Source of the DNA: Escherichia phage saus132
Direction: 5' to 3' (one strand)
Sequence record: NC_047884.1
DNA: 64,000 nt
The notes beneath the pieces were generated by a model. It made no database searches. It was given only the letters and a program-made list of their open reading frames with translations, and was not told the origin of the DNA. A program made the translations under genes and the position numbers. Shown in pieces: positions 19,475 through 49,386 of this stretch; positions within the stretch are counted from its first letter, which is position 1; every line of letters starts with the position of its first letter.

Positions 19475-20001
19475 TAATAAGTCACCAGTTCTTGTACAAA
19501 AGATAAACTTTTGTCTGCATTATGCCCTACTGCATAGTCCATCCTAGTTGCTGTTGAATTAGTCATAGTAATATGATGGTGAAGATGTACATCAGCAGAT
19601 AATGGTGTAACTGAATTAATAGTAGATACATACGCCATATCTAGATGATTATTGACGTACATTTCAAGAAGCAGAGTTGCTCCTCCTAATACTACAGTTA
19701 CTTCTTCCTTGAGGAAATCAGGCAGACTGTACCCAATATTACTTATGCGTGTGGCTGATCCTACAGAGTTCGGTAGTGGTCTATTTGCATAAATAAATAG
19801 GTCAGAATCCCCTAGTATTCTTTTTTGCAGAGTCTCAGGGAATGCTAACCAAGTTCCTGCTCCTACAATAATATTGTCAGGTGCTAGAGAATCCAAAGTA
19901 GCATAGAAGATATCTAGTTCTTCTTTGAAAGAACCCCAAGGGAGTTTACCATTGAGGCCGAACTCCCCATTCGGCCCAGTTGCATAGATTGCTGCTATCA
20001 T
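19474..20001 (-). CDS. dihydrofolate reductase
   Basis: N-terminal [22 protein letters not shown] typical of DHFR; operon context with thyA and nrdB. Confidence 0.7.
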
Positions 20002-21146
20002 TAGAACATACCCTCAAATTCGTTGCCAAGATCTTTCAGAGTATCCATAGATGTTTCTGTGACTTGACCTACACGATATGCTGCGCCAATCTGAATCTCT
20101 TGCGGAGCAGGTTGTAAAGATGTAGTATCCAACCAGTTCATGATCCACGGAATAGGGTTCTTAGTAATTACAGGTAAGTGGCTTGGCCATTCTACACCAA
20201 TGTGCATAAATGCGTTACGTCCTACAAAGTAAAGGTATTCTTCAAGCAGTTCTGCGTTCAAACCAATCAGACTACGGCCTTTAAAGATAAAGTGACCCCA
20301 TTCAATCTCAGTTTTCAGAGTTTTTAGGAGTTGTGTTGGTGCTTTAGCTAATGCTTCATCTACCAGATCTTTATCAAATTGCTGAAACATAATCTGGATG
20401 ATAGCTTTAGACATTTGAGTATGTAGAGCTTCATCTTTAGCGATTAATTGCAGGTTCTTAGCAATACCTTGCAGAATATCGTTCTCTGCTAGAGCAAAGG
20501 TACATGCAAAGGATGCGTAGAACTGCATTGCTTCCAGACCGTAGATTGCAAAGTAAGCATCTAACAGCTTAGCCTGAGTTTCACGTTTAACTTCAGGGAA
20601 CTCAGTTTCTGGATAAGTATTATCACCACGATGATCACGTACTGCAAGGAAATACTGACCTAACAGATACAATTCATCAAACAGTTCAACAGAATCTGCG
20701 ATACGTGCAAATGCTTCTTGGTTTTTAGTTACAGAATCAATAAATTCTGCTGGATCAGTCAGAACGTTACGAATAATATTACTATACGCACGGCTGTGCA
20801 GATCTTCGAAGTAGCTCCACTGCTTGAGCATACCCTCCAATTCAGGACGGCTTACAAGCGGCATAATAGCTGCTTCAGGAGCACGGCTAATGAAAGAATC
20901 TGTTTGGGTCTGCCATGCTAAGTTCAGGAGAGTAATTTCCTGAATATCACGCGGAAGGTTTGGCCATTGTTTCTTATCGGCTTCCAGACTGATTTCAGTT
21001 TCAGTCCAAAATTGAGAACGTTGCAGAAGTGCTAGACGCTCAAGTTCAGGATGTGCTACACGAACGTAATCTGCGATACCAAGAGAATCGCCCAGGAAAA
21101 GGTCAGCGTTAGTATGATCCCAATTCAGGTTTAGTAAAGTAGTCAT
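20001..21146 (-). CDS. nrdB: ribonucleotide reductase class I small (beta) subunit
   Basis: Size and ferritin-like helical composition; adjacent to nrdA. Confidence 0.8.
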   Translation of the reverse strand: MTTLLNLNWDHTNADLFLGDSLGIADYVRVAHPELERLALLQRSQFWTETEISLEADKKQWPNLPRDIQEITLLNLAWQTQTDSFISRAPEAAIMPLVSRPELEGMLKQWSYFEDLHSRAYSNIIRNVLTDPAEFIDSVTKNQEAFARIADSVELFDELYLLGQYFLAVRDHRGDNTYPETEFPEVKRETQAKLLDAYFAIYGLEAMQFYASFACTFALAENDILQGIAKNLQLIAKDEALHTQMSKAIIQIMFQQFDKDLVDEALAKAPTQLLKTLKTEIEWGHFIFKGRSLIGLNAELLEEYLYFVGRNAFMHIGVEWPSHLPVITKNPIPWIMNWLDTTSLQPAPQEIQIGAAYRVGQVTETSMDTLKDLGNEFEGMF

Positions 21147-21177
21147 TGATTTTCCTCTTTCTCACTATTTCAGGAAT

Positions 21178-21206
21178 ATTATAGCAAATCTGGTAGCGAT
21201 TAGCAA
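21178..21206 (-). promoter_or_regulatory. promoter for nrdB-DHFR-thyA operon
   Basis: Minus strand -35 TTGCTA, 17 bp, -10 TATAAT. Confidence 0.6.
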
Positions 21207-21212
21207 GTAAAA

Positions 21213-21695
21213 TTATAAACTATCAAGCTCCAATAGTTTAGCATCGCGCCATTCTATAGCATCCTCTAATTCTTTAAATGTTTTAGTATGTTTTACACCT
21301 TTCCTAGCTATTTGGACTTGATAAGATCCACTTGCTTTTTGGTGTATATTTTTAATACCTAACTTATTGTCCTTATGTGCTCCAACGTTCTTTCCATTAC
21401 TAAATCTGTTAGAGGCTAGTAAATTAATTGCTCTATTATCATGACGTATTCTATTATCATGATCTACTTCTTTTGGGATGTACCCATGCGTAATATAGAA
21501 TGCTAGGATATGTGCGTAGTATTTTGTACCTCTTACCTGCATTACTATGTATCCTGAGCATTTTTCCAAAGAGCCTGCCTCTTTGCCTGCAAACTTAGTA
21601 TTAAATGATTTATCTTCTCTAGGTTTGTGGGTAAAGATTCCGGTTTCTGGATTATAGTCAAATAACTCAGCTATTTCTTTGTATTTTTCTTCCAT
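21213..21695 (-). CDS. HNH homing endonuclease
   Basis: HNH core DHDNRIRHDNRAINLLASN; lies between nrdA and nrdB. Confidence 0.7.
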   Translation of the reverse strand: MEEKYKEIAELFDYNPETGIFTHKPREDKSFNTKFAGKEAGSLEKCSGYIVMQVRGTKYYAHILAFYITHGYIPKEVDHDNRIRHDNRAINLLASNRFSNGKNVGAHKDNKLGIKNIHQKASGSYQVQIARKGVKHTKTFKELEDAIEWRDAKLLELDSL

Positions 21696-21723
21696 AATCT
21701 AAAATTACAGCCATTATAGGCCT

Positions 21724-21747
21724 AATAAAGGGGCTTTCGCCCCTTAT
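21724..21747 (-). terminator. terminator after nrdA
   Basis: Hairpin AAGGGGC-TTTC-GCCCCTT then U-run on minus strand. Confidence 0.55.
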
Positions 21748-21750
21748 TTA

Positions 21751-24144
21751 TTATAATTGACAACCACCAGATGCGCATCCAGCAGCAGCTTCCTCTCCTG
21801 CACCTCCACCATTTTCAGTGTTGAAGTTTGCATAATAAAAGGTTTTCCAACCGTACTTAACAGCAGTCATAAAGTCACGAACTACTACTGGGCCGGGAAT
21901 GATTTCATTCTCGAACTTGGTGTAGTCATAGTACATATTCGTACTGATAGACTGGCTGAAGAATTTCTGCATGGTTGCTACCCATTTGATCCACTCGATA
22001 CGATCTACATCATAAGCCAGTTTATAGCTCATTAATGTATCCCAATCAGTTGCACCTGGAGCAATTGCAATTACTTTATTCACTGCACTACCCTTGATAG
22101 ATACGATCTTACGGGGCGGTTCGATAGAGTTAGTAACACCTAGCAGTACAGAGGAACTTTCACCTGGCATCTGAGCAGTCAGAACAGAGTTGCGCATACC
22201 ATATTTCAGAATATCTGCACGCAGAGATTCCCAATCCATTTCTAGACCTACAGTTACCAGTTCATCAACAGTTTTCTTGTACGTGTCGATTACCAGAGTT
22301 CCTTGCGAAGGCTTAGTACGATTAAACCAGTCACATGCACCTTGTTCTTTAGCCAGACGTACAGAGGCTTTATGTAGGAAGTAGGACAGCTTTTCAGCTT
22401 CACGGTGAATCCAGTTACGTGCTTCAACACCTTCGTAAGCCAAACCTTCTGCTGCCATTGCACCTGCTGCGTTCATCAGACCAATACCAACGTTACGACG
22501 TTTCTTAGCCGTGTATTCCATAGTTGGGAATGGATAATCCTGAATCTCGATGATTGTATCAACGAATTTCAGAAGGATGTAGCAAGTTTTCTCCCATTCA
22601 GCCAGAGATTCCATGCGGCCTAGTACAACACCACCTAAGTTACACAGAGATACTTCACCAATATCTTCTGGACGCATATCGTCTAACTGATCTTGGGTTT
22701 TATACAGTTCCGTAACGTGATGGAATGGACGGGTTGGCTGAGTAATTTCAACACAAAGGTTGGTCATACGAATCGGGTCAAGGAAGTTACCATGACGGTT
22801 AGATTCACCAATGTGATGAGCATACATACGCCCTGTTTCCATACGGATACGTAACCAAGTATCTAGGATTTCTTTTGCAGAGATTCTAGGAGCTGCTGGA
22901 ATTGTTTTTCCTTCGTGGTCGATCTTTGTAAGAGATGCCACACGTTTCTCCGCTGCCACGTAGATTTCTTCAAACTTAGCCTCATCTTCACCATAAAACG
23001 CTTCATGAACTTCTGGTGCGTAGAAGTAGGACATTAGCGTAATATCTTCGTTTTTCAGGTAACGTTTTAACAGAAGGTTGTTAAAGCTCAGAGAATAATC
23101 CATCTTATCGATTTTATTCTCGTCTGTAGCACGTTGCTGCTTAACCTGCATCAACTGAATGATTTCAGGATCGAAGTATGGATAAGACACAGTAGCAGAA
23201 CCGCCACGGGTTTGCTGAGTGTTAGCTTTTACTGAACGGTCAATGTGTCGATAATATGGCAGTTTTCCGGAATGCGGGAATGCCCCATTTCGCACCGGAT
23301 CAGCAATTGATCGGCTTTCAAGATGATACCCGATTCCCGCTCTGGCTGCGACCATTTTGAAGACGATATGCTCGGCTGTGTCGATTGAATCCAGCGTGTC
23401 AGTGGAATCCACGAGGCAACAACTAGCAAATCCACGGTCACTAGAGCGCAGGCCAACCAGTGGCGGCGTAGGAACGTTGATTTTGTGGAGCGACATTGCA
23501 TTGTAGAGGTCGATTGCATCTAGAATTGTCCAGTTAGGTTGAGATAACATCGCCATTGCCATACCCATGTAGGCAAACTGCGGGGTTTCATAAATTTCAC
23601 CAGTTGCAATATTACGACGAGAATACTTGTCGAAGAACTGTTTCAGTCCACCACTGGTGAATAAACGATCGCGATCATGATCAATAACTTGGTTCAGAGC
23701 GTCAAACTGATCATCGCTAATCCATGCACTCATGTCTTCCCAAGCGCCAACACGAACCATATGATCGTGGAAGAAACGCAGAGAAGGTGGTTCGAAGGAA
23801 TCATATAGGCGTTTACGCATCTGCGCAAGACGTAATTCCTTTGCTGGCACATCGTATGCTGGGTTATCTTTGATAAGACCTTCAGCGGCTTTAATTAACG
23901 CATCCATTAGGGTATCGGAATCTACAACACCTTTAGGTAGAGTTTTTTGAGCAGACATAGTGATGGCTGACCAGCTCACATCAACTGTTTTGCAGCCATA
24001 TACTGCCCAACCATTGAGTTTTTCAGGAGCAAAGTCTTCTACAGTACCGTCACGTTTAATTACTTTTGTAATTCTAAAGTCCATTGCGGTTTCCTTTTTA
24101 TAGTTCTCAGGATTTAGATAGTATTCTACTTTGTTTTGAGTCAT
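21751..24144 (-). CDS. nrdA: ribonucleotide reductase class I large (alpha) subunit
   Basis: 797 aa; NLCVEITQP active-site motif; C-terminal Cys pair. Confidence 0.85.
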   Translation of the reverse strand: MTQNKVEYYLNPENYKKETAMDFRITKVIKRDGTVEDFAPEKLNGWAVYGCKTVDVSWSAITMSAQKTLPKGVVDSDTLMDALIKAAEGLIKDNPAYDVPAKELRLAQMRKRLYDSFEPPSLRFFHDHMVRVGAWEDMSAWISDDQFDALNQVIDHDRDRLFTSGGLKQFFDKYSRRNIATGEIYETPQFAYMGMAMAMLSQPNWTILDAIDLYNAMSLHKINVPTPPLVGLRSSDRGFASCCLVDSTDTLDSIDTAEHIVFKMVAARAGIGYHLESRSIADPVRNGAFPHSGKLPYYRHIDRSVKANTQQTRGGSATVSYPYFDPEIIQLMQVKQQRATDENKIDKMDYSLSFNNLLLKRYLKNEDITLMSYFYAPEVHEAFYGEDEAKFEEIYVAAEKRVASLTKIDHEGKTIPAAPRISAKEILDTWLRIRMETGRMYAHHIGESNRHGNFLDPIRMTNLCVEITQPTRPFHHVTELYKTQDQLDDMRPEDIGEVSLCNLGGVVLGRMESLAEWEKTCYILLKFVDTIIEIQDYPFPTMEYTAKKRRNVGIGLMNAAGAMAAEGLAYEGVEARNWIHREAEKLSYFLHKASVRLAKEQGACDWFNRTKPSQGTLVIDTYKKTVDELVTVGLEMDWESLRADILKYGMRNSVLTAQMPGESSSVLLGVTNSIEPPRKIVSIKGSAVNKVIAIAPGATDWDTLMSYKLAYDVDRIEWIKWVATMQKFFSQSISTNMYYDYTKFENEIIPGPVVVRDFMTAVKYGWKTFYYANFNTENGGGAGEEAAAGCASGGCQL

Positions 24145-45727: not shown

Positions 45728-46217
45728 TTTCAAATTGCCCGTATATGCTTTACGGGCGTTTGTATCAATTGAGCAGGAAGGTGATTATTCCGTAATTACA
45801 ACAAGATATAATAAATATGTGCTAGATAACAGGAAGTTGCCTGGCACATTCTCTCAACGTAGATTAGACCTATTCGAGAAGCGGAAAGAATTACCTTATA
45901 AGCTCTATCCTATTCGTGGTAGAATATCAATGTTGTCCCAATTAGTTGGGTCAAAGCGTAGCCAGTTCATAGATTCTGATGGAAATCTTATTAATTGGAA
46001 GAAAACTACGTTCTATGATGTTATCACGTCTAAAGTTCTGCATTCTGCAAGAATTTATAATGGAAAGTATCAATGTTATGTGGCCAAAGTTCCATATCCA
46101 TTCGTACTATCCTATGTTCCAGCTTATATAAGCTATATTCTGGTAAATAATAGCCCTGTTATTTACCAAGTCCATCAAGAGGAGCCTGAAATTCCTAGAC
46201 TTAGAATAAAATTATGA
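45720..46217 (+). CDS. hypothetical protein (165 aa)
   Basis: ORF overlapping polymerase stop. Confidence 0.45.
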   Translation: MLDFKLPVYALRAFVSIEQEGDYSVITTRYNKYVLDNRKLPGTFSQRRLDLFEKRKELPYKLYPIRGRISMLSQLVGSKRSQFIDSDGNLINWKKTTFYDVITSKVLHSARIYNGKYQCYVAKVPYPFVLSYVPAYISYILVNNSPVIYQVHQEEPEIPRLRIKL

Positions 46218-47560
46218 AGGTTGTTATATCTAATAAAGCCTATTTCAAGCCCGATGATGAACTCTGGGATTACTGTAGTAAACAAACTACTTATCACATC
46301 GAGACAATGACTAGTAAATACCCTATTATGTATAAGAATAGTGGTGTTGTTGCTAAAGAGATTAAGTGGATTCCCGTTACGCGTCTGGATTTACTAGAGG
46401 CTAAGGGAGTAAAATACGAATTAGTTGATAAACGCACGTTATCTCCGGTAGAAATACCAGAACCTCAGTTCAAGCTACGTGAAGAAGATCAGCTTCCTAT
46501 ATATGAAGAGTGTGATGATACTTGTATTATCAATGGTAAGCCTGGATTTGGTAAAACTATCTTAGCTCTAGCTCTTGCGTATAAGTTTGGTCAGAAAACT
46601 CTGGTAATCTGCACTAACACATCCATTCGTGAAATGTGGGCTGCAGAAGTTCGTAAATGGTTTGGGTTCGAGCCTGGTATTATAGGTTCTGGAAAGTATA
46701 ATATTGATCCACCAATCGTGGTCAGTAATATACAAACAGTGAACAAACATGCGAATAATCTTTCTAAGGTATTCGGTACTGTTATAGTTGATGAAGTTCA
46801 CCACTGTGTAGCTACAACTTTCACTAATTTCCTAGAGATCTCATGTGCTCGCTACAAGATCGGTCTATCAGGTACATTAAAACGTAAAGATGGGCTACAA
46901 GTTATGTTCAAAGATTTCTTTGGATATAAGATCTTTAGTCCCCCTGTTAATAACACTGTTCCACCCACAATCCATAGGTACTCCGTACCTGTCGAGTTAT
47001 CAGGAAACCAGAACGTACCGTGGGCACTACGTGCTAATGATGTATATAATCATCCTGAATATCGGGAAACTATTATAAACCTAGCACATTTATATGTGTC
47101 TATGGGGCATAAGGTTCTCTTTGTAAGTGATAGGACGGAACTAATCCAAACAATATTAGAAGCTCTCGCACAACGTGGTGTTACAACCTATGAGATTATA
47201 GGTGCAACTCCTTTGGATGACCGATTGAGAATCCAGAAAGATGTAGCGGAGGGCGGACCCTGTGTGCTTGCAGCAGCTCAGAGTATCTTCTCAGAAGGTA
47301 TTTCTCTTAACGAGCTGTCTTGTTTAATAATGGGAAGTCTCATTAATAATGAATCTCTCATAGAACAGTTAGCAGGCCGCGTTCAACGTATTGTTGACGG
47401 AAAGTTAGATCCGATTGTTGTAGATTTAATTATGAAAGGAGGTACTGGTTTAAGACAGGCTTCTGGACGTATGGCCGTGTATCGCAATAATGCATGGAAA
47501 ACTATTACTATGACTCCGGAGAAAGCAGTTAGATTAGCCCAGGAAGTATTTAAGGCATAA
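46214..47560 (+). CDS. SF2 DNA helicase
   Basis: Walker A GKPGFGKT and DEVH box VIVDEVHH. Confidence 0.8.
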   Translation: MKVVISNKAYFKPDDELWDYCSKQTTYHIETMTSKYPIMYKNSGVVAKEIKWIPVTRLDLLEAKGVKYELVDKRTLSPVEIPEPQFKLREEDQLPIYEECDDTCIINGKPGFGKTILALALAYKFGQKTLVICTNTSIREMWAAEVRKWFGFEPGIIGSGKYNIDPPIVVSNIQTVNKHANNLSKVFGTVIVDEVHHCVATTFTNFLEISCARYKIGLSGTLKRKDGLQVMFKDFFGYKIFSPPVNNTVPPTIHRYSVPVELSGNQNVPWALRANDVYNHPEYRETIINLAHLYVSMGHKVLFVSDRTELIQTILEALAQRGVTTYEIIGATPLDDRLRIQKDVAEGGPCVLAAAQSIFSEGISLNELSCLIMGSLINNESLIEQLAGRVQRIVDGKLDPIVVDLIMKGGTGLRQASGRMAVYRNNAWKTITMTPEKAVRLAQEVFKA

Positions 47561-47561
47561 A

Positions 47562-48092
47562 ATGATAACACAAGATAAGCTCAAAGAACTTTTCGAGTAT
47601 AACCCAGATACAGGTGATTTTACTCGTAGAGTAGCTAAAGGTAGAGCTGCAAAAGGAAGTATTGCTGGATCTCGTAACTCTAATGGTTATGTCTATATAA
47701 AAATAGATAAAATATCTTATCCTGCACATAGGCTTGCCTTCCTATACGTGGAAGGCAGGCTTCCTGAAGAGATAGACCATATTAATCGTATAAGATGGGA
47801 TAATAGGTGGAATAACTTGCGAGAGACCACACATCAACAAAACTGCAGAAATAGAAACACTAGAAGTACTTCTGGATATTTAGGCGTACATTGGGATAAT
47901 AATTCTTCTAAATGGAAGGTAGAGATAACTAACTGTATAGGTGTTAAAATATACGGTGGGTTATTCCCTTATGAGGAATTAGAGTTAGCTATAGATAAAG
48001 CTAATGAACTTAGAGCACAGCATCTAGGCATGGATTCCAGACAAGAACTATTCAAAGGATATATTTGTCGACGTGAGGACTTAGATAAGTAA
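47562..48092 (+). CDS. HNH homing endonuclease
   Basis: HNH core DHINRIRWDNRWNNLRETTHQQN; N-terminus similar to the nrd HNH. Confidence 0.75.
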   Translation: MITQDKLKELFEYNPDTGDFTRRVAKGRAAKGSIAGSRNSNGYVYIKIDKISYPAHRLAFLYVEGRLPEEIDHINRIRWDNRWNNLRETTHQQNCRNRNTRSTSGYLGVHWDNNSSKWKVEITNCIGVKIYGGLFPYEELELAIDKANELRAQHLGMDSRQELFKGYICRREDLDK

Positions 48093-48100
48093 AATTGCAT

Positions 48101-48129
48101 TTGGCAACTGCTCATAATTATTGTATAAT
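48101..48129 (+). promoter_or_regulatory. orphan promoter cassette (no ORF follows; hairpin 48155-48178 downstream)
   Basis: -35 TTGGCA, 17 bp, -10 TATAAT, UTR ATACACATAAATTTGAGAGAG. Confidence 0.5.
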
Positions 48130-48201
48130 ATACACATAAATTTGAGAGAGAAAGTTTCGGATTGATAAGAAAGTCCGAAGCAGAAAAATAAAAATTGTAC
48201 T

Positions 48202-48230
48202 TGTCAAATCCTCCCGATTTAATGTATAAT
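48202..48230 (+). promoter_or_regulatory. promoter
   Basis: -35 TTGTCA, 17 bp, -10 TATAAT, conserved UTR then ATG. Confidence 0.6.
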
Positions 48231-48257
48231 ATATACATAAATTGATGAGAGACAAAA

Positions 48258-48620
48258 ATGAAATTCTTTGATTACGAGAGAATTTACCTCTTAGCTAGAG
48301 GAAACTCCGACCTGATTGTCAAGCTATTTAATAGAATGCTTGCAGAGCCTGATGCTCACCAGTTACTGGTCGGTTCTTCATTCATCTTGAATGAATCAAC
48401 TATTGTTGATAACCCTTACAAATTGTCTAATAGACAACTGGCAGAATATCTAGGAATTCTAAGTCTACGAAATTATGCCGAATATAAGTTTACAAACGAT
48501 CCGAGTTTGGACATGCAATATGTCCCCATATGGATACCACGTTCTGTAATCGACACTAACCCACTAATTGCAATCAATAAATCGAAGATAATCTTTAAAG
48601 AGGAAATAAAATATGGCTAA
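48258..48620 (+). CDS. hypothetical protein (120 aa)
   Basis: ORF after promoter cassette. Confidence 0.5.
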   Translation: MKFFDYERIYLLARGNSDLIVKLFNRMLAEPDAHQLLVGSSFILNESTIVDNPYKLSNRQLAEYLGILSLRNYAEYKFTNDPSLDMQYVPIWIPRSVIDTNPLIAINKSKIIFKEEIKYG

Positions 48621-49386
48621 GTCTTGGGGCGAAACTACTGGCGGTTCTAACGATAAAATCGACTTCCTGAAATTCAACAACGGTGTAACTCGTGTTCGTA
48701 TCGTTTCTGGTGTTCTTCCACGTTATGTCTACTGGCTGACTAACAAAGATGGTAATGCAGCTCCGTTTGAGTGCCTGCGTTTCAACCGTACTAAAGAGAG
48801 CTTCGTTCGCGGTAAAGCTGACCCGATTCACGAAATGGGCTTCTTCGAGAAAGAGCTGGACAAAGATGGTAATCGTGTTCCGCTGAAACCGAAGAAAAAC
48901 TACATCGCTTTCGTTATCGACCGTTCTGATAACAAACTGAAAGTTATGGAAGTTAAAGCTACGATCCTGAAAGGCATCCAGTCTATCATGAAGCAGCTGA
49001 AACTGTCCGACCCGTTCGATATCGATATTTCTATCGAGAAGAAAGGTAAAGGCTTCGATACTGAGTACGATGTACAGCAGATCGCAGCAATGCAGTTCCA
49101 GATGGCTCTGAAAGATCCTACTAGCGCAGAAGCTAAACTGCACGCCGCAGATGCCGATATCCTCGGTGAAGCTATGTGTGATGATACTGGTGAGTTCATC
49201 AAGTTTGAAAAAGTTCCTTCTCTGGAAGAAACCTACCCGGTTCCGTCCTACGAAGAGCAGAAAGAAGCTATTCTCGCCTTCATGGAAGGTCGTGAGAAGC
49301 AAGACGGCGGTGACGCTAAGTCTGGTGGTGATGCTGGTTCTCAGAAAGGCATCGACGCTGAAGCTGCTAGCGATCTGGACGACTAA
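48613..49386 (+). CDS. putative ssDNA-binding protein (257 aa)
   Basis: Acidic C-terminal tail (ASDLDD) typical of SSBs, host-like codon usage, position before recombination nuclease genes. Confidence 0.45.
   Translation: MAKSWGETTGGSNDKIDFLKFNNGVTRVRIVSGVLPRYVYWLTNKDGNAAPFECLRFNRTKESFVRGKADPIHEMGFFEKELDKDGNRVPLKPKKNYIAFVIDRSDNKLKVMEVKATILKGIQSIMKQLKLSDPFDIDISIEKKGKGFDTEYDVQQIAAMQFQMALKDPTSAEAKLHAADADILGEAMCDDTGEFIKFEKVPSLEETYPVPSYEEQKEAILAFMEGREKQDGGDAKSGGDAGSQKGIDAEAASDLDD

What the first reader, a model, noticed from the sequence alone, without database searches (positions are those of the whole stretch)
21213..21695. HNH homing endonuclease inserted between nrdA and nrdB
Seen in sequence: free-standing HNH ORF sits exactly between the two class I RNR subunit genes, with the nrdA terminator upstream and the nrdB operon promoter downstream. 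Established knowledge: nrd genes are classic targets of phage homing endonucleases. Suggests a mobile insertion.
Basis: partly seen in the sequence, partly recalled or inferred. Interest (0 to 1): 0.4.

Follow-up and report, generated by a model that had tools for sequence, protein, structure and literature searches.

The report
Mobile HNH nuclease gene between nrdA/nrdB
This is an ordinary, already annotated selfish nuclease gene of T5-like phages, sitting between the two ribonucleotide reductase genes; about one related phage in ten carries it and most others have an empty site or a different nuclease gene there.

Summary
Window 21213-21695 (- strand) is an intact 160-aa ORF: Pfam HNH_3, 36.2 bits against a cut-off of 24.8. 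It lies in the spacer between nrdA (21751-24144) and nrdB (20001-21146) of a T5-like phage. The two stretches compared (20500-22500 and 46900-48700) are 100% identical to chee130_1; 20500-22500 is also ~100% identical to EPS7.

The mobile-insertion reading is supported. Of 443 related phage records, 46 carry this gene. In a 53-row sample of the other 397, about two thirds have a 107-nt empty spacer. About a quarter carry a different HNH gene (T5 hegH type), and a few carry the AKFV33 type; both are inserted ~40 nt further downstream.

In Yersinia phage phiR2-01, a 688-nt tract (window 21162-21849) is 98.4% identical to the window. Its flanks are only ~83% identical.

The insertion replaces the native nrdA terminator with another hairpin and ends exactly at the ORF stop, just upstream of the intact nrdB promoter.

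The catalytic residues match I-HmuI. The predicted fold is I-HmuI-like HNH plus a C-terminal AP2-like domain. dN/dS is 0.02-0.16.

Cleavage and homing are untested. GenBank records already annotate the gene, and the literature already notes HNH genes between nrdA and nrdB in T5-like phages. Interest is low.

The parts
21213..21695 (-). Free-standing HNH homing endonuclease gene ('type A'), 160 aa. N-terminal region plus HNH (D78, H79, N91, N100), with a C-terminal AP2-like DNA-binding domain (about residues 112-158).
21696..21750 (-). Leader of the endonuclease gene. It has no Shine-Dalgarno sequence (GTAATTTTAGATT-ATG) and no convincing -35 box. It is specific to carriers of the insertion.
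   Evidence: Sequence. The promoter scan found nothing here. The leader is absent from empty-site genomes.
21728..21745 (-). Replacement hairpin after the nrdA stop (GGGGC-GAAA-GCCCC core). It stands where the native terminator is in other phages and is probably a leaky terminator or attenuator ahead of the endonuclease gene.
   Evidence: The stem is kept while the loop differs in S113, 1-23 and mar003J3 (GGGGC-UCUC-GCCCC). A different hairpin occupies the same place in the S124/phC17 variant.
21756..21841 (-). Divergent 3' end of nrdA: 22 differences in 86 nt against Sepoy, including one extra codon. This haplotype travels with the insertion but is not exclusive to it.
   Evidence: The same tail occurs in 8sent65, which lacks this ORF, and a related tail in TrudiRoth and JNwz02.
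21162..21849 (-). Tract shared at 98.4% identity (11 mismatches in 688 nt) with Yersinia phage phiR2-01, whose flanks are ~83% identical. This is the apparent transferred cassette: nrdA tail, hairpin, ORF and nrdB promoter.
21178..21206 (-). nrdB promoter (TTGCTA-17-TATAAT, extended -10). It is intact and begins 6 nt after the endonuclease stop codon. The right junction of the insertion is TAA|TTTTAC.
   Evidence: It is identical in empty-site genomes. The carrier match to the native 81-mer starts at this junction. It is annotated as a promoter in AKFV33, BF23 and T5.
21751..24144 (-). nrdA, class Ia ribonucleotide reductase large subunit (upstream neighbour).
20001..21146 (-). nrdB, class Ia ribonucleotide reductase small subunit (downstream neighbour).

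Best explanation
The ORF is a free-standing homing endonuclease gene of the HNH (I-HmuI-like, HNH_3) class with a C-terminal AP2-like DNA-binding domain. It sits in the nrdA-nrdB spacer of a T5-like phage of the Epseptimavirus (EPS7) group. Shown here: the gene is intact, conserved under purifying selection, present in about 10% of related genomes at one fixed position, and absent from otherwise near-identical genomes. In at least one case it has moved between diverged phages together with ~100 nt of nrdA 3' end. Inferred mechanism, by analogy with T4 MobE and I-HmuI: when a carrier and a non-carrier phage co-infect a cell, the enzyme nicks or cuts the non-carrier DNA close to the insertion point. 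The most likely target is the last ~90 nt of nrdA or the native terminator, because that is the only nearby sequence that differs in or is missing from carriers. The break is then repaired by recombination from the carrier genome. This copies the gene and the adjacent nrdA tail into the recipient and deletes the native terminator. Expression is probably low: the gene has no promoter or ribosome-binding site of its own and would depend on read-through of the weak replacement hairpin from nrdA transcription.
For: - Polymorphism: 46 of 443 records are carriers. 391 records keep the native terminator-promoter junction, nearly all at >=95% identity.
- Precise boundaries: Sepoy has one mismatch in ~580 nt up to 21842 and none from 21212 to 20980. 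8sent65 narrows the carrier-specific segment to about 21213-21759.
- Transfer: the phiR2-01 tract 21162-21849 is 98.4% identical against ~83% for its flanks.
- Selection: dN/dS is 0.02 (vs SP01, dS 0.55) to 0.16 (vs S124, dS 0.99).
- Foreign composition: 33.7% G+C against 41-44% for the neighbours.
- Hotspot: two other HNH lineages (T5 hegH type, AKFV33 orf96 type; 34-42% identical) occupy a second insertion point ~40 nt downstream in the same spacer.
- All homologues at >=75% protein identity lie at this locus. The next nearest are <45% identical and lie elsewhere.
- There are no terminal inverted repeats, target duplications or intron RNA.
Against: No cleavage, nicking or homing has been measured for this protein or any relative closer than 42% identity, so the target site and the strand specificity are guesses. 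The divergent nrdA tail is not strictly linked to the gene: 8sent65, JNwz02 and TrudiRoth carry it or a close variant without this ORF. It may therefore be a hitch-hiking marker and not an immunity polymorphism. Most carriers (SP01, FFH1, NBEco001) show divergence in the gene similar to that of their flanks, which fits long vertical inheritance. Only phiR2-01 shows clear recent transfer in the loci examined. General recombination between mosaic T5-like genomes could in principle give the same footprints without nuclease action.
Confidence: 0.85

Rival explanations
1. The gene is a retained, useful nuclease, not a purely selfish element. The phage would keep it because it damages co-infecting relatives that lack it (marker exclusion or inter-phage competition), or serves some other phage function. 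Homing would then be a by-product.
For: Purifying selection is very strong for a supposedly selfish gene (dN/dS 0.02-0.05 within the main lineage). All 12 carrier ORFs checked are full length (FFH1 and H8 were not checked). The gene has persisted through ~0.5 synonymous substitutions per site in the Tequintavirus carriers.
Against: About 90% of related phages do without it, so it is dispensable. Selection for homing itself also gives low dN/dS. Competition and homing are the same biochemical act, so this is more a different emphasis than a different mechanism.
Confidence: 0.1
2. The gene is a passive passenger. The nuclease is no longer active on any current target, and the gene is shuffled among T5-like phages only by ordinary homologous recombination between mosaic genomes.
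For: T5-like genomes are highly mosaic around this locus irrespective of this gene. The nrdA tail and the nrdB 5' end each have several haplotypes. No activity data exist.
Against: The catalytic residues and DNA-binding domain are intact and under purifying selection. A decaying example of the neighbouring type-B gene (frameshift in 8sent65) shows what loss of constraint looks like, and it is not seen here. Identity breaks hug the gene closely.
Confidence: 0.04
3. The insertion is a transposon-like or intron/intein-borne element and not a free-standing homing endonuclease gene.
For: None beyond the fact that nrd genes in other phages host introns and inteins. The Shivani nrdA is annotated with an intein.
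Against: There are no terminal inverted repeats or target-site duplication and no Rfam intron family. The ORF lies wholly in the intergenic spacer, and both nrd genes are uninterrupted.
Confidence: 0.01

Closest known systems
T4 MobE (free-standing HNH homing endonuclease between nrdA and nrdB of T4; Wilson & Edgell 2009, PMC2790892)
   Same: Same genomic niche (between nrdA and nrdB, same gene order and strand) and the same nuclease superfamily. Both are free-standing with no evident promoter of their own. [quoted passage not shown] Both are associated with gene-conversion tracts in the adjacent nrd gene.
   Different: There is no detectable sequence homology (BLASTP E 0.92). MobE's target is in nrdB, downstream; here the linked divergent tract lies in nrdA, upstream. 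MobE's mobility and nicking are experimentally shown; for this gene they are not.
I-HmuI (intron-encoded HNH nicking homing endonuclease of Bacillus phage SPO1, PDB 1U3E)
   Different: I-HmuI is encoded in a group I intron and has a different C-terminal DNA-binding region, whereas this protein has an AP2-like domain. Identity over the aligned part is only 18%.
T5 hegF (F-TflVI), hegH (P-TflVIII) and AKFV33 orf96
   Same: Same protein family and architecture: 41.6% identity to hegF, 34% to hegH and 42% to orf96. hegH and orf96 also lie between nrdA and nrdB. The AKFV33 paper already noted this arrangement and compared it with mobE (PMC3326045).
   Different: hegF sits at another T5 locus, next to the spanin genes. 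hegH and orf96 are inserted after the -10 box of the nrdB promoter and abut or overlap the nrdB start. This gene is inserted before the -35 box and replaces the nrdA terminator. [quoted passage not shown] The tRNA-region genes hegC and hegD show no significant similarity (E 1.7 and 3.6), and hegA gave no match. Which of these genes encodes which enzyme was not checked.
HNH-AP2 homing endonucleases (HNH nuclease fused to an AP2-type DNA-binding domain; recalled from Magnani et al. 2004, not read here)
   Different: Pfam AP2 is not significant on this sequence; the best value is E 0.2, for a different aligned member. The assignment therefore rests on a predicted fold.

Membership tests
HNH / His-Me finger nucleases (Pfam HNH_3, I-HmuI-like) | Significant match to the family profile | tested here: met
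   PF13392 at 36.2 bits against a gathering score of 24.8, E 4.7e-9. All six aligned homologues match HNH_3.
HNH / His-Me finger nucleases (Pfam HNH_3, I-HmuI-like) | Catalytic Asp-His general base plus the structural and metal-binding Asn residues | tested here: met
   D78, H79, N91 and N100 are invariant in alignments A2 and A3. They align with I-HmuI D74, H75, N87 and N96. The roles of the residues are recalled from the I-HmuI structure paper, which was not read here.
HNH / His-Me finger nucleases (Pfam HNH_3, I-HmuI-like) | beta-beta-alpha-metal fold | tested here: met
Free-standing homing endonuclease gene | The ORF is not inside an intron or intein and lies between genes | tested here: met
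   It lies in the nrdA-nrdB spacer and the region has no Rfam hit.
Free-standing homing endonuclease gene | Presence/absence polymorphism at one fixed site among close relatives | tested here: met
   46 carriers among 443 records. 391 records have the uninterrupted native junction. The empty allele in Sepoy and BF23 is a 107-nt spacer.
Free-standing homing endonuclease gene | Transfer with co-conversion of flanking DNA | tested here: inconclusive
   The natural footprint is present: a phiR2-01 tract of 98.4% identity in ~83% flanks. Dependence on the nuclease cannot be shown from sequence.
Free-standing homing endonuclease gene | Site-specific cleavage or nicking of the allele that lacks the gene | not testable with these tools
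   This needs a cleavage assay on the empty allele. No publication on this protein was found.
HNH-AP2 endonucleases | AP2-type DNA-binding domain fused to the HNH domain | tested here: met
T4 MobE family | Sequence homology to MobE | tested here: not met
   BLASTP E 0.92. Only the genomic position is shared.
T5 F-TflVI (hegF) orthologue, as the EPS7 and mar003J3 records name it | Same locus and high identity to T5 hegF | tested here: not met
   Identity is 41.6%, and hegF lies at T5 23245-23742, next to the spanin genes and not at the nrd locus. It is a paralogue-level relative, so the GenBank name is misleading.
Transposon / insertion sequence | Terminal inverted repeats and target-site duplication | tested here: not met
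   No such repeats flank the insertion. The insertion replaces ~48 nt instead of duplicating any.

The most novel reading that the evidence does not exclude
The 107-nt nrdA-nrdB spacer of T5-like phages may be a contested landing pad. Three HNH-AP2 lineages use two insertion points only ~40 nt apart. The window's lineage sits at the nrdA end and drags an nrdA-tail haplotype. The T5 hegH-type lineage sits at the nrdB start and drags a ~250-nt nrdB 5' haplotype across genus boundaries. No genome holds both: 0 of 46 carriers, against about a quarter of the sampled non-carriers holding a hegH-type gene. So little shared DNA lies between the two insertion points that each homing event would erase the rival gene. 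That would be direct displacement competition between homing endonuclease genes.
Probability: 0.35. Interest if true: 0.4.

Novelty: already known. Interest (0 to 1): 0.15.

Why it matters
It matters little beyond annotation. The locus is a clean natural example of a homing endonuclease gene with empty, occupied and alternatively occupied alleles in hundreds of sequenced phages. That makes it a convenient system for mapping a target site and for studying competition between selfish nuclease genes. There are also practical points. The nrdA 3' end and nrdB 5' end of T5-like phages are gene-conversion hot zones and should not be used for phylogeny. The database name 'F-TflVI' for this gene is wrong by orthology.

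Tried and rejected
- MobE homology: rejected (BLASTP E 0.92).
- Single-sequence search of solved structures: nothing. Only the six-sequence profile reached I-HmuI.
- NCBIfam: no meaningful hit.
- Own promoter for the ORF: none found by the consensus scan. The TATAAT upstream of the ORF lacks a -35 box and is not conserved in SP01 or NBEco001.
- Intron or structured RNA: no Rfam hit.
- Transposon features: none.
- IMG/VR scan for more loci: returned only four, all already in GenBank.
- The word-indexed protein search gave only 7 relatives, so the structure was predicted from a shallow 9-row alignment. Four of the five models were clearly less confident (67-75 pLDDT), and only the best was used.
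- Strict linkage of the divergent nrdA tail to the gene: rejected, because 8sent65, JNwz02 and TrudiRoth have that tail or a variant without the gene.
- The multiple alignment of mixed allele types mis-scored the spacer columns, so pairwise alignments were used for boundaries.
- The H8 record has indels that break the nrdB frame, so it was left out of the haplotype comparison.

Full report
**What is in the window.**
- Window 21213-21695 (- strand) is an ATG-initiated ORF of 160 aa ending in TAA.
- It matches Pfam HNH_3 (E 4.7e-9, 36.2 bits, cut-off 24.8) and PHROG 99 'HNH endonuclease' (E 1e-49).
- On the same strand, nrdA (21751-24144, 797 aa) lies upstream and nrdB (20001-21146, 381 aa) downstream. 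Both have strong ribonucleotide reductase profile matches.
- Further along are dihydrofolate reductase, thymidylate synthase and RNase H homologues. This is the T5-type early region (compare the T5 map).
- The two stretches compared (20500-22500 and 46900-48700) are 100% identical to 'Bacteriophage T5-like chee130_1' (MF431736), at window coordinate + 32000. The first stretch is also ~100% identical to EPS7, oselot and other Epseptimavirus phages.
- The ORF has 33.7% G+C against 43.7% for nrdA and 41.4% for nrdB.

**Signals around the ORF.**
- A hairpin (GGGGC-GAAA-GCCCC core, 21728-21745) lies between the nrdA stop and the ORF start. On the coding strand its U-tract is poor (UUUAUUAGG), and the scan called it a terminator only on the opposite strand. 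I read it as a weak terminator.
- The 25 nt before the ATG hold no Shine-Dalgarno sequence, and no promoter was found there.
- Six nucleotides after the ORF stop begins a strong sigma-70-type promoter (TTGCTA-17-TATAAT with an extended -10, 21206-21178).
- The same sequence is annotated as a promoter in AKFV33, BF23 and T5.

**Is it an insertion?** Yes.
- A 2-kb query across the locus finds 443 phage records. Only 46 cover the ORF.
- In a 53-row sample spread across the other 397 records, 36 had a span 500 nt shorter (empty site). Thirteen had a span of ~2015-2022 nt holding unrelated DNA, two had ~1969 nt, and two were contig fragments.
- The empty allele (Sepoy, BF23) is a 107-nt spacer. It consists of the nrdA stop, a strong terminator (AAGGAGAUC-UUCG-GGUCUCCUUUUUU), the promoter, and the nrdB leader with a good ribosome-binding site.
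- An 81-mer spanning that terminator and promoter is found nearly full length in 391 records, almost all at >=95% identity. Carriers of the ORF match it only from position 43, the promoter half.
- The right junction is therefore exact: TAA|TTTTAC-TTGCTA.
- On the left, Sepoy has a single mismatch to the window over ~580 nt, up to 21842. It then differs at 22 positions in 86 nt (21756-21841, including one extra codon in the window). After that it has its own terminator where the window has hairpin, leader and ORF. On the nrdB side there is no mismatch for 233 nt.
- Phage 8sent65 is assigned to the same species as the carrier bombadil (taxonomy line). It has the window's nrdA tail up to the last two codons, then the native terminator.
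- The segment strictly specific to carriers is thus about 21213-21759. It replaces ~48 nt.
- No inverted or direct repeats flank it, and no Rfam family matches.

**Has it moved?**
- In Yersinia phage phiR2-01 the flanking nrdA and nrdB DNA differs from the window every few bases (~83% identity).
- Window 21162-21849 has only 11 mismatches in 688 nt (98.4%), with sharp edges on both sides. That is a transferred cassette: nrdA tail, hairpin, ORF and promoter.
- Other carriers (SP01, FFH1, NBEco001) are ~92% identical in the ORF and similarly diverged in the flanks. This fits vertical descent within Tequintavirus.
- A second variant (S124, H8, phC17) is 75-78% identical in protein. It sits at the same position with a different hairpin and nrdA tail.
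- All relatives at >=75% protein identity lie at this locus. The next nearest are below 45% and lie elsewhere.

**Is it a working gene?**
- All 12 carrier ORFs checked are full length; FFH1 and H8 were not checked.
- Nei-Gojobori dN/dS is 0.02-0.05 within the main lineage (dS up to 0.55) and 0.15-0.16 against the S124-type variant (dS ~1.0). The C-terminal half is the more conserved.
- D78, H79, N91 and N100 are invariant across the homologues. A six-sequence profile aligns them to I-HmuI D74, H75, N87 and N96 (E 0.0047).
- An AlphaFold2 model from a shallow alignment reached pLDDT 86.6 and pTM 0.74.
- The protein is therefore an I-HmuI-like HNH nuclease with a C-terminal AP2-like DNA-binding domain.

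**The neighbourhood is a hotspot.**
- T5 itself, Shivani, TrudiRoth and JNwz02 carry a different HNH gene ('type B', T5 hegH / P-TflVIII, 34% identical). AKFV33 carries a third ('type C', orf96, 42% identical).
- Both are inserted after the -10 box of the nrdB promoter, abutting or overlapping the nrdB start. That is ~40 nt downstream of the window's insertion point.
- Type B is linked across genera to a distinct haplotype of the first ~250 nt of nrdB, while the rest of nrdB follows the genus. The window's type A travels with an nrdA-tail haplotype.
- None of the 46 type-A records also holds a B or C gene (spans). Yet 13 of 53 sampled non-A records hold a type-B-length insert.
- A naive binomial for zero in 46 is about 2e-6 (my arithmetic). 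Duplicated records and shared ancestry make that figure unreliable, so the pattern is suggestive only.

**Most likely mechanism.**
- Shown: the gene map, the polymorphism, the boundaries, the transfer footprint, the intact catalytic and binding domains, and the purifying selection.
- Inferred from the MobE and I-HmuI paradigms: the enzyme nicks or cuts DNA of co-infecting relatives that lack it, and recombinational repair copies the gene in.
- The target is most likely in the nrdA tail or the native terminator, because that is what differs in or is missing from carriers. The promoter and nrdB side are identical in carriers and non-carriers.
- Expression probably depends on read-through from nrdA and is kept low by the hairpin and the lack of a ribosome-binding site. 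MobE is likewise promoterless and co-transcribed with nrdA (PMC2790892).

**Comparison with what is known.**
- It works like MobE and sits in the same niche, but it is not a MobE homologue (E 0.92).
- It belongs to the same family as T5 hegF (F-TflVI, 41.6%), after which the EPS7 and mar003J3 records name it. But hegF lies at another T5 locus, so it is not the orthologue.
- The tRNA-region T5 genes hegC and hegD show no significant similarity (E 1.7 and 3.6), and hegA gave no match.
- GenBank records already call this gene 'homing endonuclease'.
- The AKFV33 paper reports that EPS7 has a single homing endonuclease. It describes HNH genes between nrdA and nrdB of T5 and AKFV33 and draws the mobE parallel (PMC3326045).
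- The BF23 and BASEL papers note that homing endonuclease genes are a main source of differences among T5-like genomes (PMC10644984; PMC8594841).
- I found no biochemical work on this particular protein.

**Verdict.** The finding is ordinary and already annotated. The only mildly new points are the mapping of the insertion, the transfer tract, and the apparent mutual exclusion of two nuclease-gene lineages in one 107-nt spacer. Interest 0.15.

Noticed in passing
window 47562-48092 (+): A second free-standing HNH ORF (176 aa, 33-35% identical to the nrd one) lies directly after the D10 helicase ORF (46214-47560). It is also a presence/absence polymorphism: 58 of 440 related records hold it. Phage phagemcphageface has the nrd gene but lacks this one.
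   Followed up: partly
L002 (Salmonella phage SB6) 2668-2994: The nrdA-nrdB endonuclease locus carries a ~300-nt tandem duplication of the leader plus the 5' part of the gene. The junction lies at the CATGATAATAGAGC motif. It could be a real rearrangement or an assembly artefact.
   Followed up: no
L020 (Salmonella phage 8sent65) 1178-1800: The T5 hegH-type HNH gene upstream of nrdB has a 2-nt insertion that breaks the frame, and the record does not annotate it. This is a decaying homing endonuclease gene. The phage shares the window's nrdA tail.
   Followed up: partly
nrdB first ~250 nt: window 20897-21146 and the same part of L004, L006, L019, L020, L021, L008: The 5' quarter of nrdB forms a haplotype that goes with the hegH-type gene across genera (87-95% among TrudiRoth, T5, JNwz02, 8sent65 and Shivani), while the rest of nrdB follows genus. 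SP01, which carries the window's gene type, has this nrdB 5' haplotype 100% identical to JNwz02. 1-23 and mar003J3 have yet another haplotype (74-75% identical to the window).
   Followed up: partly
nrdA-nrdB spacer in all 46 carrier records: No record holds both the window's gene type and a hegH- or orf96-type gene, although about a quarter of sampled non-carriers hold the latter. Only ~38 nt of shared DNA separates the two insertion points.
   Followed up: partly
L006 (Salmonella phage Shivani) 2774-5020; L013 (mar003J3) 490-1002: The Shivani nrdA is annotated as containing an intein (gene 3243 nt against 2394 here). mar003J3 has a further HNH gene (P-TflX) between nrdB and the dihydrofolate reductase gene. 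Both are additional mobile elements in the same operon.
   Followed up: no
window 21432-21444 and 21450-21462: A perfect 13-nt direct repeat (TCTATTATCATGA on the + strand) lies inside the ORF. It encodes the twofold H-D-N-R of the motif VDHDNRIRHDNR.
   Followed up: no
L012 (Yersinia phage phiR2-01) 2753-4105 and 4154-5002: nrdA is annotated as two CDS separated by 48 nt. Whether this is a frameshift, a sequencing error or a real split was not examined.
   Followed up: no
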